Below are positions 4,886-61,875 of a stretch of 64,000 nt of DNA, in pieces (within the stretch, counting starts at the first letter, position 1; each line of letters begins with the position of its first letter). Both the position numbers and the translations under genes were made by a program. The notes under the pieces were generated by a model that had not been told where the DNA came from, searched no databases, and saw only the letters and a list, made by a program, of their open reading frames with translations. The stretch is from Octopus vulgaris (lineage: Eukaryota). The stretch is taken from contig OX597818.1 of NCBI GenBank assembly GCA_951406725.2, forward strand, positions 68,448,001-68,512,000. The letters run 5' to 3'.

Positions 4886-4973
<88 letters not shown>

Positions 4974-4975
<2 letters not shown>

Positions 4976-5137
4976 CAGATTCTTTCAGTTTCTCTCTACC
5001 GAATCCACTTACAAGATTTTTGTCAGCCTGTAGCTACTGAAAGAAAACATTTGCCCAAGTTGTCACATAGTGGTATGAAATCTGAAAACCACCCCATTAT
5101 TAGGCAGACCATTAAACCCAAGAGCTATGCCTGCGCC
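4974..5137 (-). mobile_element. SINE family 1, 5' half, degenerate
   Basis: Reverse complement matches head and body of family 1. Confidence 0.7.
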
Positions 5138-7833: not shown

Positions 7834-8494
7834 CCATCATCATCATCACCATCATCATCATTACCATCATCGCCTTAACTTTACATCGTTTGTCTGTTTA
7901 ACAAACACTAAAACATAAGCATGAACATACAAACTGCCTTTCTCTCTCCTCTCCCTCTCTTTCTCTCATGCACACGCATACATATACAACAGGCTTCCTT
8001 TCAGTTTCCTTCTACAAAAGGCATTTTAATGGTATTTCAAATGAAATGATACTTTATTACTATTCTTCATAAAAGGTAATTTTAGTTTAAAGAGATTAAT
8101 TTATAACAATTAACAAACAATTAATGAATGTTTGCAATGAATAGTTATTAATTATTTTAAAATATTAATTGCAAGCAGGATTTAAAATTATGAAATCATT
8201 ATTTCACAAACTTCTCAGAAAAATATTTATACACTTGGATCTTTAGCGACTGTGGACGATTCTCCATCTTTCTTCTTTCCGAAATCCATTTCCCCTTTAA
8301 TTAGTGAGGTGTGACGAGAACCGAAACGGATGGGCCGTGCCACACCTAAAATTCTTGAAATATGTAATATCTCAGTATGGTGCCCGTTTGGTAGCATCGA
8401 GAATTGAGAGCTCAAAGAAGGGCAGACACACATACACAAAAACACACACACACACACACATAAACACATACACACAGAGGCAGACAGACATATG

Positions 8495-8793
8495 TTTGTT
8501 CCTTCTCTAGCCACGCCTTGCTCATAAGGGCCGGTTTCCCGGTTTCCTTGGCGTATAGGTTCCCCACCTAGACGGGACGCCGGTCCGTCGCATGTGAGCT
8601 GCAAGATGCAGGAGGAAAGAGTGAGAGAAAGTTGTGGCGAATGAGTCAGCAGAAGTTCGCCATTGACTTCTGCTGGATCCGCGTAGAGCTTAGGTGTTTC
8701 GCTCACAAACACACACATCGCCCAGTTTGAGATTCGAACCTGCGATCCCGCGACCACGAGTCCGCTGCCCTAACCACTAAGCCATGTGCGTCC
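8495..8793 (-). mobile_element. SINE family 2 (head + middle X + V-like tail B)
   Basis: Minus strand TGGCTTAGTGG / GGTTCGAATCT boxes; tail GCGACGGACCGGCGTCCCGTC...GGAAACCGGGAAACCGG. Confidence 0.8.
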
Positions 8794-8798
8794 AGACA

Positions 8799-8902
<104 letters not shown>

Positions 8903-8903
8903 T

Positions 8904-8944
<41 letters not shown>

Positions 8945-9289
8945 TAAATATATATCCTTATCAATCATTCTTCATCGTCCCTTAAAGTTCACTTCTCGAT
9001 GCTTGCATGCCTCAAACATACTTTAATGCATGTGCGTATGTATGTACGTACGCATGCACGAATGAATGTATGTATGTGTGTATGATTGTCTGAGTTGCAC
9101 ATATCTAATGCCCTGGTTGTGAATTCTAATTTAGACCCAGTCTAACAGATGGCGATAGACAGGGCATTATAAGTTCTAACGAATTGTCTTTGCAATCATA
9201 ATGAAAGATAATCAAGTATAGAATAACAGCTAAATATATTATCTGCATTCAGAATTATGACACAAAAGCGTCTATTATAATAACTACGT

Positions 9290-9540
9290 AGAGGTGCGTG
9301 GCTAGTTGTAAGGGTGTTAGCACCGTGATCGTAAGATTGTGGTTTCGATTCCTGGACCGGGCGACGAGTTGTGTTCGTGAGCAAAACACTTCATTTCACG
9401 TTGCTTCAGTCCATTGAGCTGGCAAAAATGAGAAACGCTACGATGGACTGGCATCCCGTCCAGCTGGAGAACACATACGCCATAGAAACCGGGAAACCGG
9501 GCCTATGAACCTGGCTAGACTTAAAAAAAAAAAGGCGCAT
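9290..9540 (+). mobile_element. SINE family 2 (head + CORE-like middle + tail B)
   Basis: tRNA head, GAGCAAAACACTTCATTTCAC..GCTGGCAAAAATGAG, GATGGACTGGCATCCCGTCCAG; TATAATAACTAC repeated on both flanks (TSD-like). Confidence 0.8.
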
Positions 9541-10819
9541 TTATATATATATTTTATATAATAACTACATTTAGGAATGATTTCACAAGTTAGCAATATT
9601 CTGGAAGTAATTAATCTACATGTAGATCTCTTGTCGCTTCCATTTCTTTCCCCCTTTTCGTACATTCTCTGAATTACGAACGATCGATAAAAAAGAGGAA
9701 AAAGGCATTCTGTGAATATCTTGTAAAACTTTTAATCTACTTTAGAATATTTTTTGCGTTGGGTTATGTCGTACCGACGATTCCAGATAAGAATGAAATG
9801 GCGCTTAACATGACTTCCAATTACAATGAGTAAAAAATATATATATATATATATAGAAGAGATTTGTAATGAGTAGAAAAGAATATAATATTATTTATTG
9901 TGCACATTCTGTGAATTTTCACTGCATTTAAGTTCAAAATTCGAAGATCTCACCTCACCATGATTGAAGATTTATTTAGAAATAATTATATTCCTGACAA
10001 CATCTGCGACACTCCATGAGCTGACTGTGAATTCTAAATTATTTCCACAGGATCCGCTGGTGATTGCCAAGACGATACGTGTTCGAGGAAATTGTCCCTA
10101 TCAGCATGAACAAGTATAAACACCAATGGAATATCAGCTGAAATATATTACCTAAACTCGGAATGTGGGCACCAAAATTAGTTTGGGAAATTTATTTAGA
10201 GCCAGGATTACTACAAGTTTTATGAACTTTTTTCATGATGTAGAAATTAGAACACTTCGCTTTTTGTTTTGTTTCTCTTCTCCTTTCTCTCTCAATTACT
10301 GAACTGTAAACGATCTTGATTTAGATACAAAATTTCAGAAAGAATCCATTAAATCTCTTGAGATCTATCAAGCTTTGTATAATGATTAATTCACTAAAAT
10401 ATATTTGCCTCCGGATGTGTCATTCTGATAATTCTGAATAAGGATGAAATGGTGCTGTAAATGGCTACAAATGACTATGAGTAAAAACTACATAAAATTA
10501 TTAAATATTCGTATTCATTGCATATTTTTGTTACACTGAAATTTAAAATACGTAATTTAGGATTTATCTAGAATTTAAAATACATGATTTAAGATTTATC
10601 TAGAAGCGATTATCTGCCTTACAATAAATATAGTAAGGGCTCCGCGTGTTCAAACTAGTCTGGCTGTGAAGTCACATTATATCCACACAAACTAATGGTG
10701 ACGGCGCAGGGGTTTGCATCCGAAGATATTTGCTCTGCAAATATAATGGAGGATGTTTTATCAACGCCAAGAATGAAACTCAATAAACGATTCGTGAATT
10801 TTGTTTGCAGTCAAAAATA

Positions 10820-11420
10820 TCTTTTATCTCTTATTTGTTTCGGCCATTAAACTGCGGCTTTGCTGGGGCACCGACTTGAATTTTTAGCCGAATGGTCGAC
10901 TGCGGTACATTTGTTTTTAAATCCTAATACTCATTCAATCGGTATCTTTTGTCGAACTGCTGAAATTACGGGGACGTAAACACCGACATTAGTTGTCAAG
11001 GGGTGGTGGAGGAAAACTCGGATACAATGACACACACATACTCAAACACATACATGCATGACGCCATGATAGATCGTTAGCTCCTACACGCATTTTGCTC
11101 TCCTTTTCTGTGTATCTTTCTGTCGAAGAGCGTAGGCTCGAAACGTGAAAGACTTTTTCTATTCCTGAGCGCTATACTAATACATTTGTTTGTTTGTACT
11201 CCACCTGCCTTCGTCTTTTGTTTATATTCGTAAAAATTTCCCTTTATATATATATATATACGCCCGGCTGCTTTCAGTTTCCCTCTACTAAATCCACTCA
11301 CAAGACTTTGGTCGGTCTGAGGCTATAGCAGAAAATACTAGCCGAAGTTTCCACGGAGTGTGACTAAATCCGGAGCCATATGGTTGGAAAGTAAGCTCTT
11401 TACAACGTAGCTATGCCTGG
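10820..11420 (-). mobile_element. SINE family 1 with a nested insertion at 11062-11245
   Basis: Both halves match family 1; a foreign segment sits in the internal microsatellite. Confidence 0.8.
11062..11245 (+). mobile_element. Short hammerhead-bearing insertion (Penelope-like terminal fragment); motif at 11115-11152
   Basis: TCTTT CTGTCGA A GAGC-GTAG-GCTC GAAA CG TG AAAGA, then TTCCTGAGCG, ending in (TA)n; relative at 20220-20430. Confidence 0.55.
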
Positions 11421-12256
11421 GAAGATTTCAATAGTTAGAATTCCTTAAAATTAATTAATAATTTGTAAAACTCTTCAATCCCTACGTCCACCTCTGTCCT
11501 CTCACTTATTTAACTATGAAGCTCTATGAGTTAAAATAAAAAAAAAGAACAAAAGCATTCATAGAATATTATCCGAAATCTCTCGGTTTGTATAATGCTG
11601 AATTTTGTTGAAAAATATGTTATTTGGATTAGGTCAAGTTCATAATTCCAGTTAAGGATGAAATTGCGCTATATATAACTAACAATGATTATAAAATATT
11701 TAGGAAATATGTAATGAGAAGAAAAAGTATATAATTATGAAATAGAGGTATTCCGGGCATCTTCGTTGTTATTGTTATATCTAAAACTGAAACTTCTCAC
11801 ACTCTAATTTAGGACTTATCTCCGTTATAAATTTAGCCACCATGACTCCATGTCCTCAGACAATTCTGGATATGGTCTCTAATTTATATCTACACAAACT
11901 AATGGCTGTAGCTTATATTCCCGAAGAAATTGTCTCTGTCAATATAAAGAGGCATAATCATCTACCGAACGGCAACTAAATTATATTATCTACGACCGGA
12001 ATGATGGCATACCAAAAGCGGTTTGTGAAATTTGTTAGTAATCAAGACTGTTATAGAAACAACATTTAGAAATTCCCTGGAAGTAATTGAACTGAAAGTA
12101 GATCTCTTCTTTTCCTTTCTTCTCTTTTCCCTTCTCTATCTCTTGCTGAACTATAAACGATCTTTGAAGGAAAACAAGAAAGAAAAACCAACTCACTAGT
12201 TGAATACTTTGTAGGCAATCTCGCTGCAGTAAATGATAATATTTAGTGTAAAATAT

Positions 12257-12489
12257 TTTATTTCTTTACTGCCTACAAGGAGCTACACATAGAGGGGACA
12301 AACAAGGATAGACAAACGGAGTAAGTTGATTATATCGATCCCAGTGCGTAACTGGTACTTATTCGATCGACCCCGAAAGAATGAAAGGCAAAGTCAACCT
12401 CGGCGGTTTTGAACTCAGAACGTAGCGGCAGACGAAATACCGCTAGGCATTTCGCCCGACGTGCTAACGCTTCTGCCAGCTCCCCGCCT
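12257..12489 (-). mobile_element. SINE family 3 (Meta-domain-like) with 15-bp TSD
   Basis: Minus strand GCCTTTCATTCTTTCGGGGTCGAT..AAGTACCAG; TSD TTTAGTGTAAAATAT at 12242-12256 and 12490-12504. Confidence 0.9.
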
Positions 12490-14300
12490 TTTAGTGTAAA
12501 ATATCTGCCTATGTTTAGGTCATGCTGGTGATTACAAATAAGGGTAAAAAGATGCCATAGATAGATGTCAATAATTATAAATTATTCAGGTTCTTCGTAA
12601 TTAGAATTACAGAATTAGGAAGAAGTCACATTTTGTGCATTTTCTTTATTGATGTTATATATAGAGGAATGAAAGTTCTCCCCTGCTATGATTTAGGATC
12701 TATCGAGTAGTTATTACGTCCCTTACAATAACTGACGTCATAGGCCCACATGGTCATACTTCTCTGCCGGAATTCTAATTTATATCCACAAAATTGAGGG
12801 AAATATCCAAGGTGTTATGTGTCCGAAGAAATTGTCTCTACTGACATAAATAAAAGCAAAACAATTGCAGACCAGAGGCTGAAATATATCATCGAGGCCA
12901 GGAATGATGTCGCTAAAAACGATGTGAGAATAATTTTTTTGTACCCAGGATTGTTATAGTAACTCCATGTTACACATGTAGTCACACATCTTAACAAGTT
13001 TAGGATTCCCTGGAAGTAATCAAATTGTATGTAGAAATTTACTCCCTTCCTTCTTTCTCTCATTCTCTCCCTCCCCCTCTCTTAGTGAACTATCAGCGAT
13101 CGATGAAGAAAGAGGAGATCGATACATTGAAAGACGCCTAAACTATCTCACTTCATAAATGTTAATTTAATATAATTCTTAAGTATACATCATTCTGATA
13201 AATCCAAGTAAGGATGAAACGGTGTTGTACATTGTTACTGGTGTCTAACAGATACTTCCAATGTTTCTAATTAGAATACAATCATTGAATTGATATATTC
13301 TCTGCATTTTCATTGTAAGTCTTAATTCTAAAATTCAAACTTCTCACTCAGCTTCGATTTACGCTTTCTCTAGAAGCGATTATCTCCATAAAATTAACGA
13401 CTTACTGGACTCCACGTGATCAAACGACTCTGAGTGTGAATTTTAATTTATATTCACACAAACATTCAGCGAGCCCCCAAAGCGCTGAGTATTCGTAGAA
13501 ATTGACTCTATCAATAAACAATGACGGATGAACGATGGCGGAATAGCAGCTGAAATATGTCATCTGCGCCTGAAATGATGACACCATAAACGATATGGGA
13601 ATCTTATTCGTAGCCAAGGCTTTTAGGGTCACTAAATCTATTTCTAGCATGCGGCCGACTACCTACATCTATGTGGTTTTGAAAAAGTAGAAATTCCTTC
13701 AGTATAATCGAACTGCTGATGTCCTCACTCTATGCTCCTTTCTCTGTCCTTTTTGCTTTCCTTTTCAGCTGTTGAACTATGCACGATCTATGAAGAAAAA
13801 GGAGGGGGAAAACACCTCCATTTTATGTCCCGTAAACTATCGCATTTCATAAAATGTTAAATTTAATGTAGTGTAATTACCAAGGTTTATAAATTTCTGA
13901 TGATTCAAAAACAAAAATAAAAATAGAACGAATAAAAACGAAAGGAATGGTGCTATACATAGATACCAGGGACGAGAAAAATATTTCTGATCTTTACAAT
14001 GAGAAGAATAAAGAATTATTAAAATGTGAATAATGTAAATAATGTACAAAAGAAATCCTTTTAAACTTGTTAAAATAATCTTCGAAGTAGTTTATATGAT
14101 GGGAAATATAATTTCGAAGAGTTCCTGATATCATAAATCTTATAAAAGACTTTGCAGTTAAAGTAACGAAAACTTCTCAAAAAGTGGAAATTTACAAGAA
14201 ATCAACATTATTTTCCGTCTTACTCGTAATTTTGCTTCATTGTGAAAAATAAAATTATATTTTATTTTTTATTATTCTTATATTTTGAATTACTTATATA

Positions 14301-14357
14301 TGGGTGTGTCAAGATCTTTTAAGTGCATCGGGATTCCATGGATCTTGAGGCGACCCA
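14301..14357. mobile_element. Possible tiny MITE remnant
   Basis: Imperfect terminal inverted repeat TGGGTGTGTCAAGATC / GATCTTGAGGCGACCCA with TA on both flanks. Confidence 0.3.
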
Positions 14358-15659
14358 CTATGTATACATACATATATGTGTGTGCTTACCAGAATAACAA
14401 GGTAATCCTGTTAAGAGTTAAGGATTAAGAAAAAGGTGGAGTAATATATGATAATTAAATCATTCATATTAAATCCCCTCAATGATTCTCCCTCTACGTC
14501 TAACAAATAGGGATAAGCATACACTCACACACACACACACACACATATATATATGCACATAATACAATGAATATTTTATATATGTATACGCACATACACT
14601 TATATATGTGCTTGCGTGTGTGTGTGTATTTGTGTGTATATATATTTGTGTGTATATATATATATGAAATTATATATATATATTTATATATATATATATA
14701 CATATATATATGTTTGTATATGTATATATATGTATTTTATGTGTGTGTGTGTATGGATGCATATGTATCTGTATGCATACATATATGTATAAAGATATAT
14801 ATATATACATACTTATATGTGTATATAAATTTATGTATATATATATATATATATATGCATACATGCATACATGAATACTGAGAGAGAGAGAGAGAGAGAG
14901 AAAGAGTTACAGATACACAGTGCTGCAATCCGTTTGCTAAGTTGCCAGTTTAAAATATCTTAATCGATATATCTATGTACATAAATGTGCGTGTGCGTTT
15001 TATAATACATATATATATATATACATGCATACATACATGCAAGCATTACATGTGCACAACACACACACACCCTCTGAAACACACACATACCCTCTGAAAC
15101 ACACACACACGCACATATATACATACATATGGACATACATACATACATTTGACAAATACATGTATTAATACACAGTGAGGTGTGTTAAGTATTGTTTTAG
15201 CCTTGAAAGCAAATCACATTCCATAATTTCATATACAAAAGCCTTCCCTTACTTCCACACATACACCCATTTCTGCATATCAATTCTCACCTACACAAAA
15301 GCAACCCCGCCCCCACGCACACCCACGTCAAAGACATATATTCCCGGGTAGTACAAAATATATACATTCTCAAAAGCAAATAATTTATATATTCTTTAAA
15401 AAAATTATATTCTAAATTCTGTTGTATATATTTATGTTTACAAACAAAAAAAATAATAATAATTTTCACTATCAGAAATACACGAAGCAGTTTGATTGAT
15501 TTTCGGGAAATTCACTCTTTATTTTCATTTTGAAATATTTTTATTTTGTGTTTAGTTTTCTTGTCGATGTATTACACAGCGCTTACTTTCAAAAAAAGAT
15601 AACATCGCAAACATAATTCACACTTGCAAACCTGACAAGTATTATCATCATCATCATTA

Positions 15660-31504: not shown

Positions 31505-31589
31505 CTCCGGCGTAGTGGTTCAAGAGGGCGGGCTACTAACCCAAGATTTCGAGTTCGATCCCAGGCAGTGACCTTAACAAAAAAAAAAA

Positions 31590-31649
<60 letters not shown>

Positions 31650-32350
31650 TACCAAAAACATGTAATGAAAAGAAATATTACAAGTAACTGCAGAATATGT
31701 GGAGATGGACAAGAAACAATAAATCATATTATCTCTAGCTGCCCAGTCCTGGCTAAGAAGGAATATATTCACAGACATGACAGAGTTGGAACCTACATAC
31801 ATTGGAAGCTATGCCAACATTATGGAATAACAACAGAAAAAAGATGGTATAGGCACACACCAGAAAAGGTCACAGAAAACGAGAAAGCAACCATACTCTG
31901 GGATATGCCGATACACACAGATAGAGAAATTAAGGCCAACAGACCAGATATAGTTGTCAGAGATCATGAAGAAAAAAATGCTTTCTAATTGATGTATCAA
32001 TACCGGCAGATGACAACGTGTCTCTAAAAGAAATGGAGAAACTCTCAAAATACAAAGACCTGGAAATAGAGGTAACTAGAATGTGGAACCTGAAAACAGA
32101 AACAATTCCTATCATAGTAGGTGCATTAGGCATGATAAAAAAATATTCAGACAAATACATAACAAAAACACCAGGACTTACAAACACATATAACATACAG
32201 AAAATTGCACTACTAGGTCTGCACACATCCTACGCAGAACACTTTCCATACAATAACCATCAGAGCATCACAACAAATCACAGCACATACCCAAGGCACA
32301 CAGAGCTGCGCTCGGTAGTGAAGTGAAAGCACGCTATAAAAATAAAACTA

Positions 32351-60539: not shown

Positions 60540-61875
60540 CCTCTAAATTGATGCTGTTTCTTTGCCAACCCCGTCTTCTTTGAGGGATTGGCACTTCTTT
60601 AGGGAGCTGTCAGCATTCATCCACATCACATGACCACACCAGTGCAGTCTCCACTCTTGCACTCTTCACCTAATTCCTCTTATACTTAACTTATCTCTGA
60701 ATACACTGGCCCTTACATGTACATTTACGTTGCACATCCAGCAGAGCACACTAGCCTCATTCCTCTCTCGCCTTCATGTGCCCTTTTTGCATTCAGAGCC
60801 CATATCTCACCACCGTGTAGAATTGCTCTTCTTTTACATGAATCATACAATCTTCCTTTCACTTGGTGAGGGAAACCTTTGGTTACCAACAGAGGTAACA
60901 GCTCTCTGAATTCTCTCCATCCTCTTTTTATTCTAGTTATTACACCTTCTATACAGCCTCCCCCACAACTAATTTGGTCCCCTGGGTAGTAGAAATTATC
61001 CACTATCCCCAATGAGCCTCCATGGCATTTGACAAAATCAATTTCCCAAGTATCTGTACTTTTTATGGCTCTTGTGCATCTTTCACTTACAAACACTACT
61101 TTCTCTAATAACCTTCCTATTCTACTACAGCTTTTCTGTATCCATAGCTTACACCAGATACACCAGATGGAATTCTTGCCTACACCTTTCCTACAAATTC
61201 AGCAGAAACCCTTACCTGTGGTGGGTAGGGTCCTGTTTGTTTTTTCTTGCTTTTGCTTGTTAGCCTTTGCCAAGTTAATCTTAAGGCCCTTAGATTCCTT
61301 AAATTAAGGCTCTTAGATAAGGCCCTTAGATTCCTTAAATTAAGGCTCTTAGATAAGGCCCTTAGATTTCACCTGGAATTTCTTTCCTCGCTCTGATATA
61401 AGATCTGCTATGAGGGTAAGGTCATCAGTATGTTGTTGCTCCCAAGGGATGCCAGTCTTGAATTCCTCTGTTATGACCAGGAGGACATTCGTCTACCACT
61501 AGCCTCCCCAGAGATCACCATATCACACAGCAGTGTACTCTATTGCAGACGTTCTCTAGAGCAATGAATGCCAAGTATATTGGCTTATTCTTGGCTAAGT
61601 ATTTCTCTTGCAGTTGCCTGACAATGAAAGTAACCCTAGTAGTGCTTCTCTCTTGGGTTGAATCCAAACTGCATTTCTTCTAGCTTAATTCTGCTCCCAA
61701 CTGATTGTAATTTCCCTTGTAATTTTCATCGCCTGGTCGAGAGGTTTGAATACCTCTATAACTGCTTTTATCTAAGGTATCTCCCCTTCCCCTTGTAACA
61801 GCTAACATTACTGTTTCCACTCTAGTCACTGGGTATTATGCCCTTCTGAATAATCTGATAAACTATGCAGGTATG
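60540..61875 (-). mobile_element. Decayed RTE-clade LINE reverse transcriptase region
   Basis: GKGD..YRG motif, EFKTGIPWEQQHTDDLTLIA (degenerate YADD), IVDNFYYPGDQISCGGGC..GWREFRELLPLL..VKGRLY..HGGEIW; internal deletion and a ~36-bp tandem duplication near 61282-61367. Confidence 0.88.

What the first reader, a model, noticed from the sequence alone, without database searches (positions are those of the whole stretch)
9080..14100. Old ~650-bp tandem array with a hammerhead-like motif in every unit (retrozyme-like satellite)
Seen: motif cores at 9774, 10425, 11639, 12525, 13195 and 13897, spaced ~610-700 bp once SINE insertions are removed. Cores read CCGACGA, CTGATAA, TTCATAA, CTGGTGA, CTGATAA, CTGATGA. 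By-eye consensus: GTCATK CTGATRA TTCC-RRATAA-GGAT GAAA TGGYGCTA TA CATRAC, a type I hammerhead layout with self-complementary stem III. The unit at 10419-10465 has a fully paired stem I (GTCATT/AATGGC). Established: tandem hammerhead repeats (newt satellite II, Schistosoma Sm-alpha, non-LTR retrozymes) process multimeric transcripts into monomers and circles, and the described animal monomers are generally shorter. Inference: a relic of a large-monomer retrozyme or tandem Penelope termini predating the SINE bursts. Caveats: no single unit is fully canonical, and the first stem II pair is T-T in most units.
Basis: partly seen in the sequence, partly recalled or inferred. Interest (0 to 1): 0.75.

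Follow-up and report, generated by a model that had tools for sequence, protein, structure and literature searches.

The report
Fossil 650-bp hammerhead retrozyme array
This is a long-decayed chain of about six copies of a 650-base non-coding repeat that is scattered through this animal genome and carries a predicted self-cutting RNA motif; it is likely an extinct jumping element of a kind already known from other animals (a retrozyme), likely copied by Penelope-type enzymes.

Summary
The array is real. It holds about 5.8 units of 610-700 bp (9111-14009), about 60% identical, split by three SINE insertions, with a type I hammerhead-like motif at all six stated positions. It is not a local satellite but one copy of an old dispersed family (roughly 1,300-2,700 copies, estimated).
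Most copies are short pieces that stop about 200 nt past the hammerhead and vary at the 5' end. Five other loci hold unit-length or longer copies; one is head-to-head inverted. The family majority has the full catalytic core, a 6-bp stem I, a palindromic stem III and a U·U pair opening stem II, a variant already reported in natural hammerheads. Every window unit has 1-3 core changes. Window units are as unlike each other (60.1%) as they are unlike copies elsewhere (60.5%).
Best reading: an extinct Penelope-dependent non-LTR retrozyme, likely inserted as a multimer. Not shown: cleavage, RNA circles, target-site duplications, the autonomous partner. The monomer size lies within the published range. 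The scan already noted younger retrozymes of this kind in this and other genomes.

The parts
9111..14009 (+). Decayed tandem array of about 5.8 units of a ~650-bp non-coding element; starts at profile position 264 (the family's 3'-end/5'-start junction) and fades at position ~120
9111..9739 (+). First, partial stretch upstream of the first hammerhead (profile 264-627), split by SINE 1
9768..9814 (+). Hammerhead relic 1: U4>C, U16.1>A; stem I 5/6
10419..10465 (+). Hammerhead relic 2: G8>A only; stem I 6/6, stem II 3 pairs after U·U, palindrome 4/4; predicted cut after 10459
11633..11679 (+). Hammerhead relic 3: C3>T, G5>C, G8>A; stem I 4/6
12519..12565 (+). Hammerhead relic 4: A6>G, G12>A; stem I 3/6
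13189..13235 (+). Hammerhead relic 5: G8>A; stem II fully paired here (A-T at 10.1/11.1); stem I 4/6
13891..13963 (+). Hammerhead relic 6: 5' core intact, 26-nt A-rich insertion in loop 2, A13>G; stem I 1/6
9288..9556 (.). SINE-like repeat 1, flanked by a 12-bp direct repeat; best other copies 85-87% alike
10816..11420 (.). Nested interspersed repeats (three pieces; best other copies 75%, 90% and 83% alike); edges approximate
12257..12489 (.). SINE-like repeat 3, flanked by a 15-bp direct repeat; best other copies 89-92% alike

Best explanation
The array is a decayed multimer of a dispersed ~650-nt non-coding repeat with a type I hammerhead motif, a fixed 3' end and variable 5' ends, and it is likely an extinct non-LTR retrozyme that a Penelope-like element's enzymes likely copied into the genome. 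Shown: tandem units, dispersed family, hammerhead layout in the majority, fixed 3' end about 200 nt past the predicted cut, longer-than-unit copies that run through the cut site, and no sign of homogenisation among the window's units. Inferred: tandem transcripts were cut by hammerheads working as dimers through the palindromic stem III and were closed to ~650-nt circles, or stayed multimeric. A Penelope-type RT/GIY-YIG protein then primed at one fixed site and stopped at random, usually within a few hundred bases and rarely after several rounds, which gave this ~3.8-kb array in one step. It has since decayed and is predicted to be inactive today.
For: Dispersed family: 28 matches to the hammerhead pattern, 77 to a 3'-end motif, 19 to a loop-free hammerhead pattern; reversed-pattern controls 0. 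Polarity: only 4 matches to a mid-unit motif. With a whole unit as query, 12 of 12 matches outside the known arrays lie in the hammerhead-to-3'-end part. Of 28 hammerhead-anchored copies 20 end at profile 219-262, 8 break off at 81-139, none runs on; all 29 3'-anchored copies end at 235-271. Unit-length or longer copies at five other loci, one head-to-head inverted (L113) as described for Penelope-like elements (PMC8557442, PMC3846280 passages). The majority over 32 segments not picked by the hammerhead pattern has the full core. Core identity is 85% against 72% expected from base-matched flanking columns, p=0.0006. The three helices pair in 82.9% of cells against 37-53% when slid. Units 34% GC; no ORF over 51 codons on the hammerhead strand and no Penelope protein match in the majority. 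Star-like divergence: 60.1% within the window (10 pairs), 60.5% to other loci (40 pairs). GIY-YIG elements are abundant in this genome.
Against: No target-site duplications above control: 4 of 54 against 13 of 300 at score >=9. No autonomous partner linked: a Penelope protein remnant was seen in 1 of 71 3-kb family loci and in 3 of 20 10-kb loci plus one extension; the two GIY-YIG remnants upstream on the same strand run into other sequence. Covariation is not above shuffles (43 of 500). In the 13 long units the hammerhead window (0.79) is not the most conserved one (0.80-0.82 elsewhere), and the core excess may be inflated because the profile came from pattern-picked copies. The majority monomer folded as a circle is no more stable than shuffles (z=+0.5), whereas retrozyme circles are described as highly self-paired. 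None of 7 single motifs folded more stably than shuffles (z from -1.5 to +0.5). The array's own 3' end lacks the family terminus. Star-like divergence would also follow from rapid early local amplification; five C8 units are somewhat closer to each other (66%).
Confidence: 0.72

Rival explanations
1. The unit is the terminal repeat (pLTR/3' UTR) of an old autonomous Penelope-like element; the solos are its 5'-truncated insertions and the arrays are chains of termini, with no independent retrozyme cycle.
For: Fixed 3' end about 200 nt past a hammerhead, 5' truncation and inversion are all Penelope traits (PMC4209133, PMC8557442). A GIY-YIG remnant lies 1.45 kb upstream on the same strand in L112.
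Against: Wherever long copies extend upstream they continue into the unit itself (L104-L107). None of 22 relatives of the L112 endonuclease (22 of 29 loci fetched) matches the unit, bar one reverse hit at E=0.11. No match in 30 GIY-YIG loci or 9 wider ones. The helices are canonical-sized, unlike the minimal pLTR hammerheads of PMC4209133.
Confidence: 0.13
2. The family is a retrozyme, but this array grew locally from a one- or two-unit insertion by unequal crossing-over (satellite birth) soon after insertion, and then froze.
For: The C8 array is irregular, with internal deletions and repeats, and its units are closer to each other (66%, FastTree 0.91 for four units) than to others. Li et al. 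propose local amplification for retrozyme tandems (bioRxiv 10.64898/2026.07.22.740005, discussion).
Against: The window units show no excess similarity to each other or to neighbours (58-63%), and they run in unbroken register from the junction position.
Confidence: 0.12
3. The motif resembles a hammerhead but never cut; the family is some other retroposed or rolling-circle repeat.
For: No Rfam hammerhead hit in the window. None of the 6 genome-wide RF00163 matches (73 of 263,217 candidates scored) shows this family's motif. No significant covariation. U·U at 10.1/11.1.
Against: All 11 core positions and three helices fall in the right order and spacing in the majority; natural hammerheads with U10.1-U11.1 are reported (PMC3088659).
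Confidence: 0.03

Closest known systems
Metazoan non-LTR retrozymes (Cervera and de la Pena 2020, PMC7229834: passages and sections 14 and 17 read; Li, Clavereau and Pollet, bioRxiv 10.64898/2026.07.22.740005: parts 1-3 of 5 read)
   Same: Non-coding, low-GC tandem units, each with a type I hammerhead; monomers, dimers and multimers; Penelope-like elements in the same genome.
   Different: Monomer ~650 nt (170-400 nt in the 2020 paper, but 51-972 bp in the 2026 preprint). No young copy found, and units only ~60% alike, so it fails the preprint's 'active' criterion. No self-paired circle predicted. U·U instead of G10.1-C11.1.
pLTR hammerheads of EN+ Penelope-like elements (PMC4209133, parts 1-2 of 4 read; PMC8557442 and PMC3846280, passages)
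   Same: Hammerhead near a fixed 3' end, palindromic stem III suited to dimers, 5' truncation, head-to-head inversion, partial tandems.
   Different: No RT/GIY-YIG ORF linked; 6-bp stem I and short stem II rather than the minimal type with a long helix II.
Hammerhead satellites: Dolichopoda pDo500 (PMC2837043, passages); newt satellite 2 and Schistosoma Sm-alpha (as described in PMC6765202 and PMC7229834 passages)
   Same: Large tandem unit (~500 bp in pDo500) with one hammerhead each; double-hammerhead cleavage proposed.
   Different: pDo500 is a homogeneous satellite of up to 5% of its genome with a conserved ribozyme; this family is sparse, dispersed, unhomogenised and decayed.
Natural hammerheads with U10.1-U11.1 (Perreault et al. 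2011, PMC3088659, passage)
   Same: Stem II opens with a U·U mismatch and is short.
   Different: Here the mismatch is the master state of a whole animal retroelement family (T in 26 of 29 and 23 of 26 segments); activity untested.

Membership tests
Type I hammerhead ribozyme | Core C3 U4 G5 A6 N7 G8 A9 / G12 A13 A14 A15.1 / U16.1 H17 | tested here: met
   Met in the family majority; 1 of 22 segments covering all 11 columns is intact; 0 of 6 window units are.
Type I hammerhead ribozyme | Three helices around the core, open at stem I | tested here: met
   82.9% of cells paired against 37-53% slid; stem I 83.9%, stem III 91.1% (24 of the 28 rows were picked by a pattern covering core and stem II).
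Type I hammerhead ribozyme | Covariation in the helices | tested here: inconclusive
   Score reached by 43 of 500 shuffles; neutrally decayed copies are not expected to covary.
Type I hammerhead ribozyme | Paired 10.1-11.1 at the base of stem II | tested here: not met
   U·U in 27 of 28 rows and in most unbiased segments; a reported natural variant (PMC3088659).
Type I hammerhead ribozyme | Match to an Rfam hammerhead model | tested here: not met
   No hit in window 8000-15500 at E<=10.
Type I hammerhead ribozyme | Self-cleavage after H17 | not testable with these tools
   Needs in vitro transcription.
Metazoan non-LTR retrozyme | Tandem units each carrying a type I hammerhead | tested here: met
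   Six motifs in register in the window; tandem copies on C8, C3, C13 and C1. All are decayed.
Metazoan non-LTR retrozyme | Non-coding, low GC (<45-50%) | tested here: met
   34% GC; longest stop-free frame 51 codons on + and 82 on - in the majority.
Metazoan non-LTR retrozyme | Dispersed, retroposed copies | tested here: met
   Fixed 3' end and 5' truncation.
Metazoan non-LTR retrozyme | Target-site duplications (when present) | tested here: inconclusive
   Not above control; copies are 20-30% diverged.
Metazoan non-LTR retrozyme | Highly self-paired circular monomer | tested here: inconclusive
   z=+0.5 against 25 shuffles, on an imperfect majority of 13 old units.
Metazoan non-LTR retrozyme | Expressed as circular and linear monomer RNA | not testable with these tools
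   Needs northern blot or RNase R RT-PCR; not expected for decayed copies.
Autonomous EN+ Penelope-like element | RT plus GIY-YIG ORF between pLTRs | tested here: not met
   No ORF or protein match in the unit or in the 64-kb window by tblastn; no consistent link in flanks.
Autonomous EN+ Penelope-like element | Partial tandems and 5' head-to-head inversion | tested here: met
   L113: arms diverge at 4990/5000; 1.15-1.2-unit copies at L106 and L107. One inverted locus only.
Satellite DNA under concerted evolution | Units within an array more alike than units elsewhere | tested here: not met
   60.1% within against 60.5% between.

The most novel reading that the evidence does not exclude
The array is a fossil single-step product of rolling-circle reverse transcription: a Penelope-type RT primed at one fixed site on a ~650-nt ribozyme-made RNA circle and went round about six times. 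The family would then be a datable, extinct lineage of circular-RNA parasites whose master ribozyme worked with a U·U-opened stem II and can be rebuilt and tested from more than a thousand decayed copies.
Probability: 0.35. Interest if true: 0.55.

Novelty: new member of a known kind. Interest (0 to 1): 0.3.

Why it matters
It adds an old, extinct layer to the record of ribozyme-carrying parasites in this lineage. The family's copy ends fit the proposed but little-tested idea that Penelope-like enzymes move animal retrozymes. It also shows that pipelines built on tandem-repeat finders and Rfam miss such fossils: both missed this array. A rebuilt master ribozyme would test whether a U·U-opened stem II works in an animal dimer context. 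As a mechanistic system, younger families in the same genome (noted earlier by the scan, unchecked here) are better material, which limits the interest of this locus.

Tried and rejected
Rfam on the region: only simple-repeat noise, no hammerhead. Tandem Repeats Finder misses the array (period limit 500).
Autonomous partner: the unit profile found nothing in 30 GIY-YIG loci or 9 of them widened to 10 kb. The L112 endonuclease remnant has its own relatives, whose homology ends about 60-120 nt after the stop. The remnant 6.5 kb upstream of the C8 array is followed by 6 kb of unrelated repeats.
Target-site duplications: not above control.
5' ends at the predicted cut: 2 of 29 3'-anchored copies start at profile 67, too few, and starts are confounded by later insertions.
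Converging pairs: L117's arms are about 90% alike with the same ends, so I dropped it as a later duplication; L115 and L116 (72%, 65%) remain unexplained.
Sequencing runs: no RNA holder listed; this is no evidence either way.
U·U as a novelty: rejected, precedent in PMC3088659. Large monomer as a novelty: rejected, see the 2026 preprint.
The per-unit scoring was off by one base and was redone. My notebook figure of 6.6 units was wrong; it is about 5.8.
Luense et al. 2017 on dimeric Penelope-associated hammerhead variants is not held; I saw only its title in a reference list.
Full report
Observation. The six cores lie at the stated coordinates and read as stated. Self-comparison shows head-to-tail units at 59-68% local identity. 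A profile of the units runs in unbroken register from 9111 to about 14009, about 5.8 unit lengths, with three gaps filled by other repeats. Two of those inserts carry 12- and 15-bp direct repeats, so they entered an existing array. Their best relatives are 85-92% alike, and those of the nested insert 75-90%, whereas array units are 70-76% identical to a leave-one-out majority. The array is therefore older than these SINE waves. Contigs from four DNA runs under four organism labels cover most of the array, with 0-7 differences per contig in two runs and 1-31 per 0.3-1.2 kb in the other two (array contigs listed); it is fixed among close relatives.

The family. A window unit found four other loci. 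Patterns then gave 28 hammerhead matches, 77 matches to a motif near the 3' end, 19 to a loop-free hammerhead pattern and only 4 to a mid-unit motif (two in the window, one in a multi-unit locus, one without a profile hit). Reversed controls gave 0 each time. The mismatch spectrum (2/16/59) fits 20-23% divergence and roughly 1,300-2,700 copies, ignoring indels. No young copy was seen: among the hammerhead-anchored copies the best pairs reach 75-84% over short stretches, and the near-identical pairs L037/L038 and L184/L185 are neighbours that look like local duplications.

Ends. Of 28 hammerhead-anchored copies, 20 end at profile positions 219-262 and 8 break off at 81-139; all 29 copies anchored near the 3' end stop at 235-271. 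Column conservation in a tail alignment of 54 of 68 loci collapses at that point. With a whole unit as query, 12 of 12 matches outside the known arrays lie between positions 6 and 253. Upstream extents vary over hundreds of bases. A fixed 3' end with variable 5' ends is the mark of target-primed reverse transcription (established knowledge). Five other loci hold unit-length or longer copies: an irregular array of about six to seven units on C8, 1.15-1.2-unit copies on C13 and C1, a split copy on C3, and a two-armed locus on C1 whose arms diverge head-to-head. These copies run through the predicted cut site, so the template was a circle or an uncut multimer, not a cleaved linear monomer (inference). 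The window array begins at position 264, at the junction, directly after a microsatellite; its 3' end lacks the family terminus, which counts against a clean reading. Target-site duplications could not be recovered (4 of 54 against 13 of 300).

The ribozyme. In 32 segments from loci not picked by the hammerhead pattern (aligned to a profile that was built from picked copies), the majority has CUGAUGA and GAAA, a 6-bp stem I, a 3-bp stem II with a six-base A-rich loop, an 8-nt palindrome in place of a closed stem III, and an AUA cut triplet. A palindromic stem III is the layout described for hammerheads that act as dimers (PMC4209133). Positions 10.1 and 11.1 are T in 26 of 29 and 23 of 26 segments, so U·U is the master state. 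Perreault et al. report natural hammerheads with this mismatch and call it the best-tolerated mispair (PMC3088659, passage). The core is 85% identical to the majority against 72% expected (p=0.0006), but across 13 long units the hammerhead window is not the most conserved, and covariation does not beat shuffles. Only 1 of 22 complete segments keeps all 11 core positions. Each window unit has 1-3 core changes, G8>A in three of them, so present activity is unlikely. Rfam does not recognise the window units.

How the array arose. Window units are 60.1% alike (10 pairs) and 60.5% alike to units elsewhere (40 pairs), and do not group in a tree. That excludes ongoing homogenisation. It fits one-step insertion of a multimeric cDNA, but also a quick early expansion; the C8 units, at 66%, leave the second open.

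The partner. The genome holds many GIY-YIG elements, including a young family with 781-codon open frames. None of 30 such loci matches the unit. Penelope protein remnants near family copies were seen in 1 of 71 short loci, 3 of 20 wide loci and one extension, and the two best placed did not hold up. Mobilisation by a Penelope-like element is therefore inferred from insertion shape and from the literature, not shown.

Comparison and novelty. The element works like, and meets the sequence-testable features of, a metazoan non-LTR retrozyme (PMC7229834; bioRxiv 10.64898/2026.07.22.740005). Expression and cleavage are untestable here, and the self-paired circle was not seen (z=+0.5). Monomers of 51-972 bp are already reported, and only 1 of 9 predicted Xenopus dimers cleaved in that preprint, a caution for any prediction. 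Searches for 'hammerhead ribozyme'+'octopus', 'cephalopod'+'Penelope'+'hammerhead' and 'retrozyme'+'mollusc' listed no paper on a cephalopod retrozyme. The giant squid paper only counts 235 Rfam hammerhead loci (PMC6962438, passage). Supplements, Repbase and Dfam were not seen and may hold the family. Papers seen: bioRxiv 2026, parts 1-3 of 5; PMC4209133, parts 1-2 of 4; PMC7229834, passages and sections 14 and 17; PMC8557442, PMC6765202, PMC6962438, PMC2837043, PMC3846280 and PMC3088659, passages only. Earlier scan notes describe younger 420-540-nt retrozymes with Penelope-type ends in this and other genomes (unchecked). None matched this sequence.

Verdict. A real, old, new member of a known kind; interest 0.3.

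Noticed in passing
G000, (e.g. L080, L085): A young, high-copy element with a C-terminal GIY-YIG domain and RT; many copies keep a 781-codon open frame. Apparently a recently active Penelope-like family.
   Followed up: partly
L064-L069: Six Rfam Hammerhead_1 matches from other families, five with G-C at the base of stem II; three share a long stem II insertion.
   Followed up: no
L142-L146, about 70-90 nt after the endonuclease stop: An older Penelope-like family shows a CTGATG core just after its ORF with no plain GAAA partner; possibly a minimal or rearranged hammerhead.
   Followed up: no
L112:4500-5050: Three tandem ~185-bp repeats (65% alike) downstream of a GIY-YIG remnant; no relative found.
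   Followed up: partly
L115:4443-5259 and L116:4002-4889: Two family copies face each other tail-to-tail 600-900 bp apart at 65-72% identity; more often than the family's density would suggest, unexplained.
   Followed up: partly
L117:4480-4605 and 4945-5050: Inverted pair of a 125-bp 3' fragment, about 90% alike with the same ends; likely a later duplication.
   Followed up: yes
G000:C8:77814000-77820640 (L104, L124): A second long, irregular array of the same family, about six to seven units with internal deletions.
   Followed up: partly
window 31578-32326 (+): Frameshifted ORF pieces with a cysteine/histidine motif and an endonuclease-like segment, resembling the C-terminus of a site-specific non-LTR retrotransposon (label recalled, translations only).
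   Followed up: no
window 60725-61198 (-): ORF piece that looks like a decayed LINE reverse-transcriptase region (label recalled).
   Followed up: no
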